Origin: a virus
Lineage: Duplodnaviria > Heunggongvirae > Uroviricota > Caudoviricetes
DNA: 17,891 nucleotides
Virus record (IMG/VR): IMGVR_UViG_2645727810_000023
Span: 1 to 17,891 of that record
Strand: one strand, 5' to 3'
The notes under the pieces are model-generated. The model searched no databases, was not told the origin of the DNA, and saw only the letters and a list, made by a program, of their open reading frames with translations. Positions within the stretch are counted from its first letter, which is position 1. Each line of letters opens with the position of its first letter. The position numbers and the translations under genes were made by a program. Positions 2,831 to 11,184 of this stretch are shown one piece after another.

Positions 2831-3195
2831 CAGTCGTCCATCTCCAGTCTTACCCCCAGCACAGACAAACATCCGTCAATAAACCCTTCGGCTATCTGCA
2901 TCTCAATTCGTATTGCTTTTTCGCTTTTCTTTCTCTTCCTGGCTATCTGTCTTTTTGATATTCGCAACAAATAATGAGCAATGAGAAGCGAATACTCCTC
3001 AGGTTTTTTCTGCTTCAGACGAGCAAGACAGTTTTCAATGATAAGTCCGTCATCATCGCAGCAGGCCGGACGTGGTTTAGTGGCAGATGGTAAAAGTCCT
3101 TTGAATCCGGCAGCGATCGGAGAATAGTCCACCCCGGTGTTACCACTTGCAGCCCATGCCCCCCAGCGTTCAAGAACCATCTGAATATCACGCAT
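2815..3195 (-). CDS. Q: Late-gene antiterminator Q-like protein (phage 21 / DLP12 QuuD-like family)
   Basis: About 126 aa starting MRDIQMVLERWGAWAA... with GGAGA SD 8 nt upstream of ATG at 3195 (ORF track start 3210 is a TTG). Sits directly upstream of the tR'-like terminator and lysis genes. Family assignment from recalled similarity, not searched. Confidence 0.7.
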   Translation of the reverse strand: MRDIQMVLERWGAWAASGNTGVDYSPIAAGFKGLLPSATKPRPACCDDDGLIIENCLARLKQKKPEEYSLLIAHYLLRISKRQIARKRKKSEKAIRIEMQIAEGFIDGCLSVLGVRLEMDDWLLKK

Positions 3196-3212
3196 CAACT
3201 TTCTCCACAAAA

Positions 3213-4208
3213 TCAGGACAGCACACCAATCGCCAGCGCGCGATCGATAAAACGAAATATCAGCTCCAGTTGGGAACCATACTTCTCTTCAAATGCCACG
3301 GTATCCGCATGCAGTTCGTCATGGTGTTTTCTGCACAAAGGCAACACAAAAAGGTCATGCGCTTTTGTACCCATTCCACCCTGACCATGACCAATCAGGT
3401 GATGAGGATCGTCGGCTGGCTTACCACAACATGCACACGGCTGCGTCTTAACCCAGCGCGTGTACTTTTCATTAACCCAGCGACGACGTTTGGGGCGTAA
3501 CATAAAAGACTCCGGCGACTCCGGATCCACTTTCAGCGCCAGCACCTTTTTCGCCTTATCCCGGATGATGCTGGTGGCAGGAACCGAAGGCACAAGGTCA
3601 CTTTCCCGGGTGACAGACGGCACAACAGGCTTCGGTAATCTCAGTGCCTTACGGGCTGCACTTTCCGGTAAGGCATCCGCCAGGTCATTACGAACCAGCC
3701 ACCAGCACAGTTCCGGCATTGTCACAACGTGACTGTCATCAAAACCGAGATCCCGACGCACAACAGACAACACCCAGCGGGCACAGTTATCCGTTGCCAT
3801 TGATTCCAGACGTTCCGTGAACTGATCGCGAAGCAGGTTATCGCAGTGCCAGCACAGACGGATTGCGCCCGGCGCGTGTCGCATTGTGGTCATGTTCTCG
3901 CTGTGCCATCCGGAATGAGGCCACTGGCAGCCTTTTTCACGAAGTAACCAGCTCTCAAGGCATTCCACACCACCAGCACGACGGATCACCGCCTCATGGC
4001 GGAACACGGCCCGAACGGCAGGATCATCCGCCAGCGGTTGTGATGCTGCCGGAACGACACCACTGGCAAAAGATGAATAACGTTCCGGCTCAGGCTCCAG
4101 CAGGACACGCCCCTGCATAAACAGGGGCATCAGCTCTGAACCGGGTCTGAACAAGACGATCCCCATACGCGGGGCAATTTCAGGGGTCAGCAGTGCTCTC
4201 ACGGTCAC
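3213..4208 (-). CDS. DUF968-like protein with C-terminal Cys/His cluster (YdfU-like, nin-region protein)
   Basis: 331 aa; C-terminus PCACCGKPADDPHHLIGHGQGG...FVLPLCRKHHDELH resembles the conserved Cys/His motif of the DUF968 family. Start codon uncertain (GTG at 4208 or ATG at 4166, neither with a clear SD). Confidence 0.6.
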   Translation of the reverse strand: MTVRALLTPEIAPRMGIVLFRPGSELMPLFMQGRVLLEPEPERYSSFASGVVPAASQPLADDPAVRAVFRHEAVIRRAGGVECLESWLLREKGCQWPHSGWHSENMTTMRHAPGAIRLCWHCDNLLRDQFTERLESMATDNCARWVLSVVRRDLGFDDSHVVTMPELCWWLVRNDLADALPESAARKALRLPKPVVPSVTRESDLVPSVPATSIIRDKAKKVLALKVDPESPESFMLRPKRRRWVNEKYTRWVKTQPCACCGKPADDPHHLIGHGQGGMGTKAHDLFVLPLCRKHHDELHADTVAFEEKYGSQLELIFRFIDRALAIGVLS

Positions 4209-8104: not shown

Positions 8105-8325
8105 GCCACACCTCCCAGACGCTTAAACATTTTTCCAGACAGAAATACCGCCAGAGGGTAACTGATGGTGTAGCTACGCCCCTGTAGTTCGCACACGACT
8201 TTCTGGCTTTCAGCGTTGACTAGGCAAACCCGCAGAACGTGACCGTTGCTGGTGGCGAACCACTGCCCCACACGGGGGCAACGGTTGTATCGGTGATACA
8301 GGGAATTAACGATGTGGCGGATCAT
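8101..8325 (-). CDS. Hypothetical protein
   Basis: 74 aa; ATG at 8325 with GGAGG SD, overlaps stop of the upstream gene and start of the downstream gene. Confidence 0.5.
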   Translation of the reverse strand: MIRHIVNSLYHRYNRCPRVGQWFATSNGHVLRVCLVNAESQKVVCELQGRSYTISYPLAVFLSGKMFKRLGGVA

Positions 8326-8516
8326 GGACGCACCTCCGCCGTAGTTACGTATTTAACCGGGCTACCTTTCATTGAGATGGTTTCACACATCTCTGCCGCT
8401 TTCAGTTCCGCTGTTTTTCTGGATTTATAGCGACGGTGCCAGACAGATACATCCGTGCGAACTGATACATCGTTTCTGTATTCCGTAGTGGAGATGATGA
8501 TTTCGTAACTAATCAT
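8322..8516 (-). CDS. Hypothetical protein
   Basis: 64 aa; ATG at 8516 with AGGAGG SD, ATGA overlap with the Rha-like gene stop. Confidence 0.5.
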   Translation of the reverse strand: MISYEIIISTTEYRNDVSVRTDVSVWHRRYKSRKTAELKAAEMCETISMKGSPVKYVTTAEVRP

Positions 8517-9376
8517 GGGCGAACCTCCTTGTCAGAACCATTCAGCCTGGAATCAACAAGTGCAGCGCCAAAAACAGCATCACCAACACGGTCGTACAGT
8601 TTGCTAGCCAGCGGAGATTCAACGGCCTTAAGCATTGGATAAAGCTGGCTTGTCCAGATTTGATGGATTTCACGCAAATGCAGGTATACGCCTCTGGCGT
8701 TTCGTGCGACAGCTGACATATCAGACGCATCGGCACCTGATAAACTCTTCTCCATCAGGTTAAAGGCGTTGATGTATGCCTCTTTGAACCGGGCAGCACG
8801 TTTACCCGTGAAACCCATAGCAAGAAATGCAAAACCGTCTCGTGTGATTTGATAGCAAGGGAGCTTGCGTGTACCGCCGTTCGGTTGATTTACCGAAATC
8901 GATGTCTCCGCAAAATTGCGGGCACAAAACTCAGGGGAACAATCCAGAGTGCGGATCTTTTTCAGCACATCGTCGTGACGCTTGGAGAAGAAGTTGGCAA
9001 CAGCCAAAGAAGTGGTAACGGCCTGGCCGTTGTCAATGGTGATTTCAGGTTGAGTGAGGGCTGGGATCGTAGCCATGATGGCAGCCTCCGTTGACAGTGA
9101 AAAACTTCCACCACCGGAAACGCCAATTTCACTGGTGGTGAACTGGACGGGGTTGGCGTAACCGGCGTCAACGGAGACCGGCGCACCTTTCGGTGCCCCC
9201 GCCCAGCCCACCATAATCTGGATGTGAGCAAATGCGGACGATAAAAAAGACGCTGGCGCGTCATACATCGCCGTTGACAATTTCAGGACGCCAATCCCGG
9301 CACCCGCTTTATAAGGTGCAGAGACAGTGTAACGTCCCGAAATTGCAGAATCAATATTTGGTCTTGAAATGATCAT
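8513..9376 (-). CDS. Rha-family (ORF6N / Bro-N-like) phage regulatory protein, with N-terminal extension or alternative internal start at 9076
   Basis: C-terminal 187 aa carry FSKRHDDVLKKIRTL...CYQITRDGFAFLAMGFTGKRAARFKEAYINAFNLME, typical of Rha/ORF6N. Internal ATG at 9076 has a GGAGG SD; the ATG at 9376 has none. The upstream 100 codons still show E. coli-like codon choice. Confidence 0.65.
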   Translation of the reverse strand: MIISRPNIDSAISGRYTVSAPYKAGAGIGVLKLSTAMYDAPASFLSSAFAHIQIMVGWAGAPKGAPVSVDAGYANPVQFTTSEIGVSGGGSFSLSTEAAIMATIPALTQPEITIDNGQAVTTSLAVANFFSKRHDDVLKKIRTLDCSPEFCARNFAETSISVNQPNGGTRKLPCYQITRDGFAFLAMGFTGKRAARFKEAYINAFNLMEKSLSGADASDMSAVARNARGVYLHLREIHQIWTSQLYPMLKAVESPLASKLYDRVGDAVFGAALVDSRLNGSDKEVRP

Positions 9377-9459
9377 ATAGCTGCTGATATCTTTAGAACT
9401 GTTCTTGGATGTTTCGGAGCCGTTTTATGCGAAACAGCTCCCCGTTATTGATGTTGAGT

Positions 9460-9485
9460 GAGCCGGGTTACTCCCGGCTTTTTTT
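9460..9485 (+). terminator. Plus-strand intrinsic terminator inside the minus-strand early operon
   Basis: GCCGGG (9462-9467) - TTACT - CCCGGC (9473-9478) followed by TTTTTTT (9479-9485). The reverse complement lacks a downstream U-run. Confidence 0.5.
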
Positions 9486-10192
9486 CACCGCTGCCAACCA
9501 ATAACCTGAAATAACCCCATTTTCGGGTGATACCAGCGAGTCCCTCGCGGTTCTGCTTCCTCCATAACCCGATAAAAAGCAGCCATAAACGGTTCCACAG
9601 CAACAATTGCGCGACGTGACAACAATCCGTCCGGCGTCATGAACTCATGTGTGTCTGTAGGAATTTGATAGGCGTTCACCAGATTGCGGCATTTATCATC
9701 TGACAAACCGGTTTTTGCTTTCAGTTGGCGATATCCGGCATAGCCCTCACGAATAGTGCCCTTTTTAATTTGCTCGACTGTTTCAGCAACGTGGCTGACT
9801 TTTTCTTCCACCTGAGTGATCCGTTTCTGTTGGCGAACGGCTTCAAGAGCCATCGCGGCAACCATTTCGATTTCGCTCATTGGCTTACGGATCTGTTCTT
9901 CCAGTTCGCGCCAGCGATCTACCAGGCGAGCAGTGAATTCAGGACAGAGCTGTGCGACGACAATGATGCTGTCGCGCTTACCTCGTTCACCTTCGAATAC
10001 ATACGCGCTAGAAAATCGGCGAGGCCCAAGTGATTGTTTATTCTCAATTTCCACAGTCTGTGGAAATTGGATGATTCCCTTTTTAGCCAGTGTTTCAATA
10101 GTTCTCTTAACACTATCTGGTCGGCTTCCCACCAGCTCTGCGATCTCAACGCTGGTCATGGATGCTTTGCCGTTAAAAATTGCGGTGTTCAT
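9485..10192 (-). CDS. Putative phage regulatory / antirepressor-like protein (Rha/Bro-N-like N-terminus)
   Basis: 235 aa; N-terminal SVEIAELVGSRPDSVKRTIETL resembles the DNA-binding start of Rha-type proteins. AGGAG SD; ATG overlaps cro-like stop (ATGA). Confidence 0.5.
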   Translation of the reverse strand: MNTAIFNGKASMTSVEIAELVGSRPDSVKRTIETLAKKGIIQFPQTVEIENKQSLGPRRFSSAYVFEGERGKRDSIIVVAQLCPEFTARLVDRWRELEEQIRKPMSEIEMVAAMALEAVRQQKRITQVEEKVSHVAETVEQIKKGTIREGYAGYRQLKAKTGLSDDKCRNLVNAYQIPTDTHEFMTPDGLLSRRAIVAVEPFMAAFYRVMEEAEPRGTRWYHPKMGLFQVIGWQR

Positions 10193-10416
10193 TGTTGGTC
10201 TCCTGTGGGCTTGTCATCTTCTGTATTCGCTAGACTTGGGTGTGTATATGGAATGCTCGGATCCAGATGACAAAGAATGGCAACATCCTCCGGAACACCT
10301 CGCGTTTTCCACTTTCCAACACCTTGACTGCCACGAGGCCTTCCTTTCTTTGGGAACCTGCGACCAATAGCGGCATTGGTTTTAAATTGAATTTTTAATA
10401 TTTCATAAAGGGTCAT
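10189..10416 (-). CDS. Putative Cro-like small regulator (by position, divergent from cI)
   Basis: 75 aa, first gene of the rightward (minus-strand) operon, translationally coupled to the next gene. Motif GVGKWKTRGVPEDVA loosely resembles the SQWK..IPE motif of Cro/YdaS-type proteins. Weak. Confidence 0.45.
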   Translation of the reverse strand: MTLYEILKIQFKTNAAIGRRFPKKGRPRGSQGVGKWKTRGVPEDVAILCHLDPSIPYTHPSLANTEDDKPTGDQQ

Positions 10417-10527
10417 TCTTTAGTCTCACACCAGATACTTTGTTATCCAACGATGTTAACCACAGGAACCCAAAGTATCAAGAAATTCTGTTACTTTAGT
10501 ATCAACAGCCATGAGAGGAGAAGAAAA
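10417..10527. promoter_or_regulatory. Right operator / divergent promoter region between cro-like gene and cI
   Basis: Repeated half-site CAAAGTA/TACTTTG at 10436-10442, 10471-10477 and 10493-10499. Candidate minus-strand promoter TTGATA (10481-10476) - 17 bp - TAACAT (10458-10453). Confidence 0.5.
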
Positions 10528-11184
10528 ATGAAGTCTTTAGGTGAACGTCTCATCAACGCACGGCAAAAAGCGGGGTTAACACAAGATGCGTTGGCTAAAA
10601 AAGCTGGGGTCACCAGAGTTGCAATCAGTAAAGCCGAGCAAGGCCTTACAAAAAGTTTCAACGGTGACACCCTTTTTAAAGTTGCAGCTGCACTGCGGTG
10701 TTCACCGCAGTGGCTTCAGAACGGAGATGAAAAAGATAAGCATTGGGAAAATAATGTTAAGAGCTGCCCACAGAGAGACACAGCACACTCTTACCCTGTA
10801 ATTAACTGGGTTCAGGCAGGATTATTCGCAACTTCTGGTGATGACTACAACATGTATGATCAGGATAATTGGAGGCATTCTGTAAAATACGCTGGTGAGA
10901 GGGGGTTCTGGCTGGAAGTGCACGGAGACTCAATGACTTCGCCCGTAGGAATAACATTTCCTGAAGGAATGTCGATCCTTGTCAACCCAGATAAAGAAGT
11001 TTTTTCAGGGTGTTACGTCATCGCCAGAAAAAAATCTACCAATGAAGCAACATTCAAAAAATATATTTCTGACATGGGAAAGGCGTTTCTAAAGCCCCTT
11101 AATCCACAATATCCAATCATAGAAATGGACAATGATTGCGAAATAGTAGGTGTTGTGGTTGATGCCAGGTGGGATATTTTCTGA
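10528..11184 (+). CDS. cI: CI-type prophage repressor (N-terminal HTH, C-terminal LexA/S24 autopeptidase domain)
   Basis: MKSLGERLINARQKAGLTQDALAKKAGVTRVAISKAEQG HTH, then HGDSMTSP (catalytic Ser) and VIARKKS (Lys). GAGGAG SD before ATG at 10528; the ORF-track start at 10453 is an upstream in-frame extension. Confidence 0.9.
   Translation: MKSLGERLINARQKAGLTQDALAKKAGVTRVAISKAEQGLTKSFNGDTLFKVAAALRCSPQWLQNGDEKDKHWENNVKSCPQRDTAHSYPVINWVQAGLFATSGDDYNMYDQDNWRHSVKYAGERGFWLEVHGDSMTSPVGITFPEGMSILVNPDKEVFSGCYVIARKKSTNEATFKKYISDMGKAFLKPLNPQYPIIEMDNDCEIVGVVVDARWDIF

What the first reader, a model, noticed from the sequence alone, without database searches (positions are those of the whole stretch)
8513..10192. 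Two Rha/antirepressor-like regulators in tandem after cro; the second has an unusual Gly/Ala/Ser-rich N-terminal extension and an internal strong ribosome-binding site
The first gene of the rightward operon after the cro-like ORF is a 235-aa protein with a Rha-like N-terminus, and a second canonical Rha/ORF6N-type protein follows, in the position where lambda has cII. For the second ORF the long reading frame (start 9376) has no SD, whereas an in-frame ATG at 9076 sits 8 nt after GGAGG and begins exactly where typical Rha proteins begin. The upstream 100 codons nevertheless use E. coli-preferred codons, so two isoforms or a fused novel N-terminal domain are both possible.
Basis: partly seen in the sequence, partly recalled or inferred. 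Interest (0 to 1): 0.5.

Follow-up and report, generated by a model that had tools for sequence, protein, structure and literature searches.

The report
RNA immunity switch inside Rha gene
The odd "extra head" on this E. coli prophage regulator gene is a known kind of phage RNA switch: a small antisense RNA and its target sites that cover the gene's real, internal start. The finding is therefore an unannotated copy of a known system, not a new protein domain.

Summary
Everything lies on the minus strand. The sequence facts hold. A 235-aa gene (9485-10192) follows the cro-like ORF. A 287-aa ORF (8513-9376) comes next, with GGAGG 8 nt before an in-frame ATG at 9076.

The 100-codon "Gly/Ala/Ser-rich extension" is not a new domain. 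It matches Pfam Phage_ASH, and on the same strand Rfam isrK (9319-9243) and C4 antisense RNA (9218-9131). This is the immunity RNA cassette known from P4 (seqA-CI-seqC, nested eta/kil), P1/P7 (c4) and Gifsy-1 (isrK-orf45-anrP).

The C4 loops are complementary to sites in isrK and to sites after C4. One site, b2 (9096-9085), covers the GGAGG. Across 120 related loci the loops and sites co-vary, and the C4 helices show compensatory changes.

So ATG 9076 starts the regulated 187-aa Rha protein.

The long frame is nevertheless kept open in the P4-like enterobacterial subgroup: 17/109/192 stops in frames 0/1/2, with spacer lengths mostly in phase. Codon-position variability is flat. This matches P4 Eta, where translation through the cassette matters rather than the peptide. 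"Two isoforms" is therefore plausible.

Verdict: new member of a known kind, missing from RefSeq annotation.

The parts
10189..10416 (-). cro-like first ORF of the early operon (75 aa), divergent from the cI-like repressor gene (10453-11184, +)
   Evidence: No Pfam hit and PHROG 4749 of unknown function. The cI-like neighbour has HTH_3 and Peptidase_S24.
9485..10192 (-). Gene 1, 235 aa: winged-helix, weakly Rha-like, Ant/'Roi'-type regulator
   Evidence: Pfam Phage_pRha 25.6 bits (below 29.9) and HTH_Crp_2. PHROG 63 'anti-repressor Ant' 3e-46. RefSeq 'Rha family transcriptional regulator'. Called 'Roi' in phage PhiR49_2.
9460..9488 (+). Hairpin plus T7 run in the 108-nt gap between gene 1 and the long ORF. 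It is a canonical intrinsic terminator only for the + (antisense) strand.
   Evidence: On the minus strand the hairpin is followed by TCACTCAAC, not a U-run.
8513..9376 (-). Long 287-aa ORF (Phage_ASH part plus Rha part), the counterpart of P4 eta. Its ATG lies 55 nt upstream of the inferred internal transcription start.
9326..9354 (-). Inferred internal promoter: TTGATT (9354-9349), 17 nt, TACACT (9331-9326), with start near G9319
   Evidence: Read from the sequence. Conserved in window-type relatives. The Rfam isrK model starts at 9319. It matches 8 of 12 consensus positions, so the scan does not list it. Inferred, not shown.
9243..9319 (-). isrK / P4 seqA / c4-a1b1-type RNA. It carries target sites a1 (TTGGCGT, 9294-9288) and b1 (TGTCAACGG, 9279-9271) and its own terminator (hairpin 9262-9249, T6 9248-9243).
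   Evidence: Rfam RF01394 62.2 bits (gathering score 50), overlapped by RF03163 c4-a1b1 at 22.6 bits, below its cut-off. Terminator. Sites.
9131..9218 (-). C4 / P4 CI-type antisense RNA. Specificity loop b' is UCUCCGUUGACG (9177-9166). Single strand a' is UACGCCAA (9160-9153). The conserved 5' AUG is at 9214-9212.
   Evidence: Rfam RF01695 81.4 bits (gathering score 45). Covariation on 30 loci: 97.3% paired, 14 of 27 pairs changed on both sides, 0 of 500 shuffles as high.
9085..9126 (-). Downstream target sites: a2 TTGGCGT (9126-9120) and b2 TGTCAACGGAGG (9096-9085). b2 includes the Shine-Dalgarno GGAGG (9089-9085).
   Evidence: The minimum-energy fold of the leader pairs b' with b2 in cis, z=-4.97.
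8513..9076 (-). Regulated short gene: 187-aa Rha-family protein starting MATIPALT...
   Evidence: Pfam Phage_pRha 96.3 bits and TIGR02681 89.4 bits. PHROG 821 7e-103. ATG lies 138 nt after the C4 AUG, as in P4 kil. The first 60 nt are C-rich and G-poor, 22 C to 11 G.

Best explanation
The region is a P4/P1-type immunity RNA cassette nested in the 5' part of a Rha-family gene, sitting in the early operon of an E. coli lambdoid prophage.

Proposed mechanism in the lysogen:
- An internal, presumably constitutive promoter (start near 9319) makes a leader RNA.
- Most transcripts stop at the isrK/seqA-like terminator (9243).
- Read-through transcripts carry the C4/CI-like RNA (9218-9131). By homology this RNA is cut out and is stable.
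- Its b' loop and a' strand pair with b2 and a2 on the mRNA. They also pair with b1 and a1 in the isrK part.
- b2 covers the Shine-Dalgarno of ATG 9076, so the 187-aa Rha regulator is not translated.
- The untranslated, C-rich start of the gene then probably allows Rho-dependent termination. This would keep the downstream replication genes silent and give sequence-specific immunity in trans.

Proposed mechanism on induction:
- The long 287-aa frame, which starts upstream of the internal promoter, corresponds to P4 eta.
- It can be translated only from transcripts coming from the derepressed early promoter.
- Ribosomes crossing isrK, C4 and the target sites would override the RNA block and the internal terminator.
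- This would yield an N-terminally extended Rha protein as a by-product.

Shown here: the RNA family matches, the target-site complementarity and its covariation, conservation of the internal start, and selection for an open frame without selection on the peptide.

Inferred: promoter activity, RNA processing, Rho involvement, translation of the long form, and what the Rha cargo does. A lytic-switch or antirepressor-type regulator is my guess for the cargo.
For: RNA family matches:
- Rfam hits above gathering score on the coding strand: isrK 62.2 bits and C4 81.4 bits.
- In P4 the same two models hit seqA (8692-8615) and the CI RNA gene (8507-8420). The old P4 'cI protein' ORF over CI matches Pfam Phage_ASH at 59.7 bits.
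- The window extension matches Phage_ASH at 73.5 bits.

Target sites in the window:
- b' pairs with b2 over 12 nt including GGAGG, and with b1 over 9 nt.
- a' pairs with a1 and a2 over 7 nt each.

Target sites across relatives:
- Of 137 unique C4 loci from viral and genome collections, 120 have all four sites plus an ATG after b2.
- These loci hold 64 distinct b' and 22 distinct a' sequences.
- Cognate b2 pairing averages 9.7 nt against 6.2 nt for non-cognate pairs. The ATG lies 7-11 nt after b2 in most loci.

RNA structure:
- C4 helices on 30 loci are 97.3% paired, with 14 of 27 pairs changed on both sides and 0 of 500 shuffles as high. Slid controls pair at 49% or less.

Architecture shared with P4:
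- The C4 AUG to target ATG distance is exactly 138 nt and in frame in the window, in P4 (kil, 65 aa) and in 54 unique enterobacterial loci.

Evidence that the frame is selected in that subgroup:
- Stops per frame are 17/109/192, and loci with a stop are 7/48/53.
- The whole region is open in frame 0 in 46 of 54 loci.
- The a1-to-C4 spacer length classes 77, 80, 101, 104, 119, 122 and 125 are all in phase (47 loci, against 7 out of phase).
- A column-shuffle null expects 17.7±2.3 sequences with a frame-0 stop; 3 were observed (0 of 2000 shuffles). Frames 1 and 2 behave as expected.
- An in-frame start codon lies upstream of the internal transcription start in 45 of 46 loci.
- Entropy by codon position is 0.696/0.699/0.691, so there is no selection at the amino-acid level.

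Literature:
- PMC10111431 summarises P4: a promoter internal to eta, termination through CI and seqA, Kil as a truncated Eta, full Eta translated only from an upstream promoter, and Eta translation preventing termination.
- PMC4825925 shows for Gifsy-1 that the ORF starting at the same AUG (orf45) is translated and coupled to the downstream antirepressor gene. It also reports that the nucleotide sequence, not the peptide, is conserved.

Other support:
- The first 60 nt after the target ATG have C/G about 2.1-2.3, against 1.2 further on.
- The leader fold sequesters b2 in cis, z=-4.97.
Against: - The long ORF's ATG 9376 has no Shine-Dalgarno. Unlike P4 eta and the Stx1-phage relative, it is not coupled to the upstream gene: a 108-nt gap with hairpins separates them. 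Translation of the long form in this particular prophage is therefore uncertain.
- The internal promoter is only an 8 of 12 consensus match and was not listed by the scan.
- More distant C4 loci (66 unique, spacing other than 138 nt) keep no frame open: 157/111/145 stops. The ORF is thus not needed for C4 function as such.
- In Gifsy-1 the short IsrK RNA activates rather than represses, so the sign of isrK action here is not settled.
- The column-shuffle control does not preserve the relatedness of the sequences.
- No expression data for this locus were found.
Confidence: 0.65

Rival explanations
1. The upstream 300 nt are purely a non-coding leader holding RNA genes. The open frame is an accident of G+C-rich structured RNA, and only the 187-aa Rha protein is ever made in this prophage.
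For: - No Shine-Dalgarno at ATG 9376, and a 108-nt gap with hairpins after gene 1.
- Flat variability by codon position.
- Strong RNA covariation.
- Distant C4 loci have no open frame.
- Many phage records annotate nothing over this stretch.
Against: - Frame-0-specific stop avoidance: 3 sequences observed against 17.7±2.3 expected, while frames 1 and 2 are as expected.
- 17/109/192 stops in frames 0/1/2.
- Seven spacer length classes in phase.
- An in-frame start upstream of the promoter in 45 of 46 loci, even where the flanking DNA is unrelated.
- The P4 eta precedent.
Confidence: 0.2
2. Gifsy-1-type activation. The relevant upstream reading frame starts at the conserved AUG at the 5' end of C4 (9214), which is the start of Gifsy-1 orf45. 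[quoted passage not shown] Because the frame here is fused rather than ending in AUGA, this gives a 233-aa extended Rha protein.
For: - AUG 9214 lies at position +106 from the inferred start, the same place as the first AUG of orf45.
- Gifsy-1 orf45 (45 aa) starts at the same C4 AUG and its stop overlaps the anrP ATG.
- The orf45 product was detected by tagging, and its translation is needed for AnrP.
- The window leader folds into a b'-b2 paired, inactive form.
Against: - AUG 9214 has no Shine-Dalgarno and lies in the outer helix of C4.
- This does not explain why the frame is also kept open upstream through isrK and beyond the promoter.
- The spacing in Gifsy-1 is 134 nt, not in frame. Its cargo AnrP is unrelated to this Rha protein.
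Confidence: 0.1
3. The RefSeq annotation is right as it stands. A single 287-aa protein carries a genuine folded 'Ash' N-terminal domain fused to Rha, and the RNA matches are incidental.
For: Pfam Phage_ASH at 73.5 bits, and several PHROG families that include this segment. PGAP calls the long ORF.
Against: - No codon-position signal.
- Helices kept by compensatory changes.
- Loops co-vary with their target sites.
- An intrinsic terminator and a promoter-like site sit inside the supposed domain.
- The P4 member of the family lies over the CI RNA gene.
- The internal SD and ATG are conserved whatever the cargo.
Confidence: 0.04

Closest known systems
Satellite phage P4 immunity region (PLE promoter, seqA, CI RNA, seqC, nested genes kil and eta)
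   Same: - The same two Rfam models hit in the same order.
- The same Pfam Phage_ASH segment is present.
- The spacing from the C4/CI AUG to the regulated ATG is the same 138 nt, in frame.
- The RBS and start are nearly identical (GGAGGCTGCCATCATGGCTAC).
- The long ORF begins upstream of the internal promoter and is in frame with the short gene.
   Different: - The cargo is a 187-aa Rha-family protein, not the 65-aa Kil.
- The host element is a lambdoid prophage early operon between a cro-like gene and replication genes, not a satellite.
- The seqA-to-CI spacer is short (a1-to-AUG 80 nt, against the 119/125-nt classes of the P4-like loci in the survey; P4's own spacer was not measured) and lacks the extra variable hairpin.
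- The long ORF start is not coupled to the upstream gene.
Phage P1/P7 immI operon (c4 antisense RNA, icd, ant)
   Same: A C4-family RNA sits in the leader of its own target mRNA. It has a' and b' elements complementary to a1/b1 upstream and a2/b2 downstream, and b2 lies over the RBS of the first gene. The role of c4 in blocking antirepressor synthesis is summarised in PMC12197685. The rest rests on established knowledge (Citron and Schuster 1990).
   Different: Here the RBS covered belongs directly to the Rha-type gene, with no icd-like intermediate ORF. The upstream a1/b1 part ends in its own terminator (isrK type).
Salmonella Gifsy-1 isrK-orf45-anrP locus (Hershko-Shalev 2016, PMC4825925)
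   Same: isrK-type RNA with a terminator, then a C4-like stable RNA (STnc1160) whose 5' AUG starts orf45, then an antirepressor-type gene of 187 aa. The leader forms translationally inactive structures.
   Different: - In Gifsy-1 the spacing is 134 nt, and orf45 ends in AUGA over the anrP start (coupling). Here the frame is fused.
- The b' loop is 8 nt in Gifsy-1 and 12 nt here.
- AnrP and the window Rha protein are not detectably homologous.
- The Gifsy-1 locus lies next to the Q-like gene, not after cro.
Phage P22 sar RNA / ant
   Same: A small antisense RNA limits translation of an antirepressor gene in a temperate phage (PMC12197685).
   Different: This is an unrelated RNA, transcribed from the opposite strand of its target. 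It has no a/b site architecture and gave no Rfam match here.

Membership tests
C4 antisense RNA (Rfam RF01695; P1 c4 / P4 CI) | Covariance-model score above the curated gathering score | tested here: met
   81.4 bits against 45, full-length match 1-87, window 9218-9131 minus strand.
C4 antisense RNA (Rfam RF01695; P1 c4 / P4 CI) | Three-helix fold maintained by compensatory changes in relatives | tested here: met
   On 30 loci, 97.3% of cells paired, 14 of 27 pairs changed on both sides, 0 of 500 shuffles as high, and slid controls at 49% or less. Helix 3 and the GGGG/CCCC pairs were fixed by my search pattern and say nothing.
C4 antisense RNA (Rfam RF01695; P1 c4 / P4 CI) | Loops a' and b' complementary to a1/b1 upstream and a2/b2 downstream, with b2 over the RBS of the next gene | tested here: met
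   Window: b2 12 nt including GGAGG, b1 9 nt, a1 and a2 7 nt each. Of 137 loci, 120 have all four sites, and they co-vary.
C4 antisense RNA (Rfam RF01695; P1 c4 / P4 CI) | Excision from the leader (RNase P) and repression of the target in vivo | not testable with these tools
   Needs northern blots, 5' end mapping and reporter fusions.
isrK / P4 seqA / c4-a1b1 RNA (RF01394, RF03163) | Covariance-model score above the gathering score, with a 3' intrinsic terminator | tested here: met
   isrK 62.2 bits against 50. Hairpin 9262-9249 plus T6. c4-a1b1 scores only 22.6 against 46.7.
isrK / P4 seqA / c4-a1b1 RNA (RF01394, RF03163) | Gifsy-1 arrangement: orf45 ends in AUGA over the start of the downstream gene (translational coupling) | tested here: not met
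   In the window the frame from AUG 9214 runs on into the Rha gene (spacing 138 nt, in frame). In Gifsy-1 the spacing is 134 nt with TGA over the ATG.
P4 eta/kil-type nested genes (Pfam Phage_ASH N-terminal part) | Phage_ASH match, with the long ORF in frame with a short gene whose RBS lies in the seqC/b2 site | tested here: met
   Phage_ASH 73.5 bits at aa 16-111. ATG 9376 and ATG 9076 are in frame. b2 covers the Shine-Dalgarno.
P4 eta/kil-type nested genes (Pfam Phage_ASH N-terminal part) | Long ORF starts upstream of the internal promoter | tested here: met
   ATG 9376 lies 55 nt upstream of the inferred start at 9319. The same holds in 45 of 46 open-frame relatives. The promoter itself is inferred.
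P4 eta/kil-type nested genes (Pfam Phage_ASH N-terminal part) | Long ORF translationally coupled to the upstream gene | tested here: not met
   A 108-nt gap separates the gene 1 stop (9485) from ATG 9376, with no Shine-Dalgarno. Coupling is present in P4-like loci and in the Stx1-phage relative.
P4 eta/kil-type nested genes (Pfam Phage_ASH N-terminal part) | Translation of the long form prevents termination; a Rho-dependent terminator lies downstream | not testable with these tools
   Only indirect support: frame openness is selected, and the 60 nt after the ATG are C-rich and G-poor.
Rha family (Pfam PF09669 / TIGR02681) | Profile score above the curated cut-off | tested here: met
   Second gene: 95-96 bits against 29.9, and 88-89 bits against 45.95.
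Rha family (Pfam PF09669 / TIGR02681), gene 1 | Profile score above the curated cut-off | tested here: not met
   25.6 bits against 29.9, and no NCBIfam hit. It is related at PHROG level to Ant-type proteins.

The most novel reading that the evidence does not exclude
The open frame across isrK-C4 may be a general translation-driven override switch rather than a P4 curiosity. In the P4-like enterobacterial branch, selection keeps a reading frame open through a promoter-like site, a terminator and a structured antisense RNA, without constraining the peptide. Cargo genes are swapped freely behind it (Rha, Kil, a SymE toxin and others). In lambdoid prophages such as this one, ribosomes arriving from the derepressed early promoter would then erase RNA immunity and the internal terminator. 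That would couple Rha expression and replication-gene expression to induction. It would also mean that the Pfam family Phage_ASH describes an RNA-dictated pass-through peptide.
Probability: 0.4. Interest if true: 0.5.

Novelty: new member of a known kind. Interest (0 to 1): 0.35.

Why it matters
- Annotation. RefSeq calls one 287-aa "Rha family phage regulatory protein" and no RNA here. Parts of the 2.1-kb region that includes this cassette match 1,614 of 5,426 complete E. coli genomes, and the cassette itself matches 337 phage records, including many Stx-converting phages. The real start of the regulated gene and two regulatory RNAs are being missed.
- Biology. The cassette probably sets a second, RNA-based layer of immunity over a lytic-switch regulator and the replication genes of such prophages. 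This is relevant to induction of toxin-carrying phages.
- Method. It is a clear case where a protein family (Phage_ASH) and two RNA families describe the same DNA. A frame can be under selection to stay open while its amino acids are not.

Tried and rejected
- My first idea was that Phage_ASH is simply a spurious translation of an RNA gene and the long ORF an artefact. I rejected this as the whole story after the frame statistics.
- The Rha cargo is not an AnrP homologue. BLASTP against Gifsy-1 STM2616 gives E=2.1.
- My first loose C4 pattern scan of viral contigs gave about two-thirds chance matches. I filtered them by fold and by eye and used a stricter pattern for genomes.
- The first structure string for pair counting was one column out of register (32.5% paired). 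I corrected it.
- Anchoring the a1 site by best complementarity gave noisy distances. I replaced it with an exact anchor on the reverse complement of a'.
- Forti 1999 (PMC94026) is not held, so I used its summary in PMC10111431.
- The svsR prophage sRNA paper concerns a different RNA at the 3' end of cI and is not relevant.
- The sroD-like match on the + strand (24.5 bits against 50) is below threshold and not accepted.
- I considered a boxB/nut reading of the hairpin after gene 1 from memory. I dropped it because the loop AGUAA does not fit, and I ran no test.
Full report
**1. What is in the sequence**

All genes of the finding are on the minus strand.
- A cI-like repressor gene (10453-11184, +; HTH_3 plus Peptidase_S24) faces a 75-aa cro-like ORF (10189-10416).
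- Next come a 235-aa gene (9485-10192), a 108-nt gap, a 287-aa ORF (8513-9376), three small ORFs, and replication genes.
- The window is E. coli prophage DNA. It is 99.4% identical to the chromosome of strain E300082, and parts of the region occur in 1,614 of 5,426 complete E. coli genomes.
ATG 9376 has no Shine-Dalgarno. GGAGG (9089-9085) lies 8 nt before the in-frame ATG 9076. The first 100 codons are 42% Gly+Ala+Ser.

**2. Profile searches of each half**

- The C-terminal 187 aa are a clear Rha-family protein (Pfam Phage_pRha 96 bits, TIGR02681 89 bits).
- Gene 1 is only weakly Rha-like: 25.6 bits, below the 29.9 cut-off. It matches PHROG 63 "anti-repressor Ant" at 3e-46, and RefSeq names it a Rha family regulator.
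- The 100-codon extension is not novel. It matches Pfam Phage_ASH (73.5 bits in the long ORF, 62.7 bits alone) and several PHROG families in which the same segment precedes different C-terminal parts.

**3. The same DNA holds RNA genes**

- Rfam finds two families above their gathering scores on the coding strand inside the extension: isrK (9319-9243, 62.2 bits) and C4 antisense RNA (9218-9131, 81.4 bits).
- With a laxer threshold the isrK match is overlapped by c4-a1b1, the targets of C4.
- The isrK part ends in a hairpin plus T6 (9262-9243).
- Upstream is TTGATT-17-TACACT, which would start transcription at G9319, exactly where the isrK model begins. It matches only 8 of 12 consensus positions, so promoter activity is inferred.
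- The 12-nt loop b' of C4 (UCUCCGUUGACG) is complementary to TGTCAACGGAGG (b2, 9096-9085), which contains the Shine-Dalgarno of ATG 9076. It is also complementary to TGTCAACGG inside isrK (b1).
- The single-stranded a' (UACGCCAA) is complementary to TTGGCGT at 9126-9120 (a2) and 9294-9288 (a1).
- A minimum-energy fold of the whole leader pairs b' with b2 in cis (z=-4.97).

**4. Comparative test of the antisense mechanism**

- I collected C4-like loci with DNA patterns from viral contigs and from one genome per species.
- Of 137 unique loci, 120 have a1, b1, a2 and b2 plus an ATG after b2, mostly 7-11 nt downstream.
- There are 64 different b' and 22 different a' sequences, and the target sites change with them. 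Cognate b2 pairing averages 9.7 nt against 6.2 nt for non-cognate pairs (examples).
- On 30 diverse loci the C4 fold is 97.3% paired, with 14 of 27 pairs changed on both sides. No shuffle of 500 reaches this, and slid registers pair at 49% or less.
- The upstream 300 nt therefore evolve as structured, specificity-bearing RNA, and ATG 9076 is the regulated start.

**5. Is the long frame meaningless? No.**

- In the window, in P4 and in 54 unique enterobacterial loci, the conserved AUG at the 5' end of C4 lies exactly 138 nt before the target ATG, in frame.
- In this subgroup, stop triplets from the leader start to the ATG number 17/109/192 in frames 0/1/2. Only 7 of 54 loci have any frame-0 stop, against 48 and 53.
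- The a1-to-C4 spacer comes in length classes 77, 80, 101, 104, 119, 122 and 125 nt, all in phase (47 loci; 7 loci are out of phase).
- A column-preserving shuffle expects 17.7±2.3 sequences with a frame-0 stop. Three were observed (0 of 2000 shuffles), while frames 1 and 2 match expectation.
- In 45 of 46 open-frame loci an in-frame start codon lies upstream of the internal transcription start, even where the flanking DNA is unrelated.
- Variability is identical at the three codon positions (0.696/0.699/0.691). The frame is kept open, but the amino acids are not conserved.
- The 66 more distant loci (spacing other than 138 nt; Pseudomonas, Chromobacterium, Ralstonia and others) spare no frame: 157/111/145 stops.

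**6. What this corresponds to**

- In phage P4 the same Rfam models hit seqA and the CI RNA gene. The old "cI protein" ORF over CI matches Phage_ASH. kil (65 aa) starts 138 nt after the CI AUG with an almost identical RBS. A long in-frame ORF (eta) opens upstream.
- PMC10111431 summarises the P4 work of Forti et al. 1999, which is not held. A constitutive promoter sits inside eta. Its transcript is terminated through CI-seqA interactions and processed to CI. Kil is a truncated Eta. Full Eta is translated only from an upstream promoter, and its translation prevents termination. The same paper notes that the Rfam C4 and isrK models detect CI and seqA relatives.
- In Gifsy-1, orf45 starts at this same AUG, is translated, and is coupled to the antirepressor gene anrP. 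The authors note that the nucleotide sequence is conserved and the peptide is not. In Gifsy-1 the spacing is 134 nt and orf45 ends in AUGA. In the window the frame is fused.

**7. Mechanism proposed**

- In the lysogen, the internal promoter feeds isrK (terminated) and some read-through RNA that yields C4.
- C4 pairs with a2 and b2, blocks the Rha RBS, and probably exposes the C-rich, G-poor start of the gene to Rho. C/G is about 2.1-2.3 in the first 60 nt across 101 loci, and 22 to 11 in the window. Rha and the downstream replication genes stay off.
- On induction, transcripts from the early promoter carry the long frame. Ribosomes crossing the cassette would override pairing and the internal terminator.
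- The weak point for this prophage is the start. ATG 9376 has no Shine-Dalgarno and is not coupled to gene 1. In a Stx1-phage relative, by contrast, the long ORF abuts gene 1.

**8. Verdict**

The Rha domain, the internal start and possible isoforms hold. The claim of an unusual or novel domain is wrong.
- The locus is a new, unannotated member of a known kind (P4/P1/Gifsy-1 immunity RNA cassettes) carrying a Rha cargo in a lambdoid early operon.
- Cargo behind the same cassette varies: Kil-like 64 aa, a 77-aa protein, Rha-like proteins, and a SymE toxin. All begin MAT....

Noticed in passing
window 9364-9490 (+ strand): The gap between gene 1 and the long ORF holds two hairpins. The second (9460-9480 plus T7) is a canonical terminator only for the antisense strand. 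A promoter-like site (TTGAAA-18-TATCTT, 9364-9393) could drive an RNA of about 90 nt ending there (fold z=-3.28). A sroD-like Rfam match is below threshold.
   Followed up: partly
L159 (Atlantibacter sp. RC6) and the other 138-nt-spacing loci: The same cassette precedes very different cargo genes: Kil-like 64 aa, a 77-aa protein, Rha-like 120 and 187 aa, and a SymE type I toxin (64 bits). Nearly all cargo begins MAT(T/V/I)(P/L), so the module boundary seems to lie a few codons inside the cargo.
   Followed up: partly
P4-like loci, e.g. L079, L155, L172: Between the seqA/isrK terminator and C4 these loci carry an extra hairpin. Its sequence is hypervariable with apparent compensatory changes. 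The spacer that holds it comes mostly in two length classes (a1-to-C4 119 and 125 nt, six apart) and contains no frame-0 stops.
   Followed up: partly
L001 (NZ_CM128602.1) 3114-3977; L124 (P4) 8168-8584: RefSeq/PGAP annotates the 287-aa ORF and no RNA over the cassette. The P4 reference record still carries the 1990 'cI gene product (AA 1-137)' CDS, named 'transcriptional repressor', over the CI RNA gene.
   Followed up: yes
window 10453-11184 (+): The mechanical ORF for the cI-like repressor is 243 aa. The RefSeq homologue is annotated as 657 nt (218 aa), so the true start is probably an internal codon.
   Followed up: no
window 9074-9015 (-) and 101 related loci: The first 60 nt after the regulated ATG are C-rich and G-poor (C/G about 2.1-2.3, against 1.2 further on). 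This looks like a Rho utilisation region that belongs to the cassette.
   Followed up: partly
L125 (Gifsy-1) 34076-34330: The Gifsy-1 C4-like RNA has a b' loop of 8 nt instead of 12. Its orf45 stop overlaps the anrP start (ATGA). AnrP happens to be 187 aa, like the window Rha protein, but is unrelated to it.
   Followed up: yes
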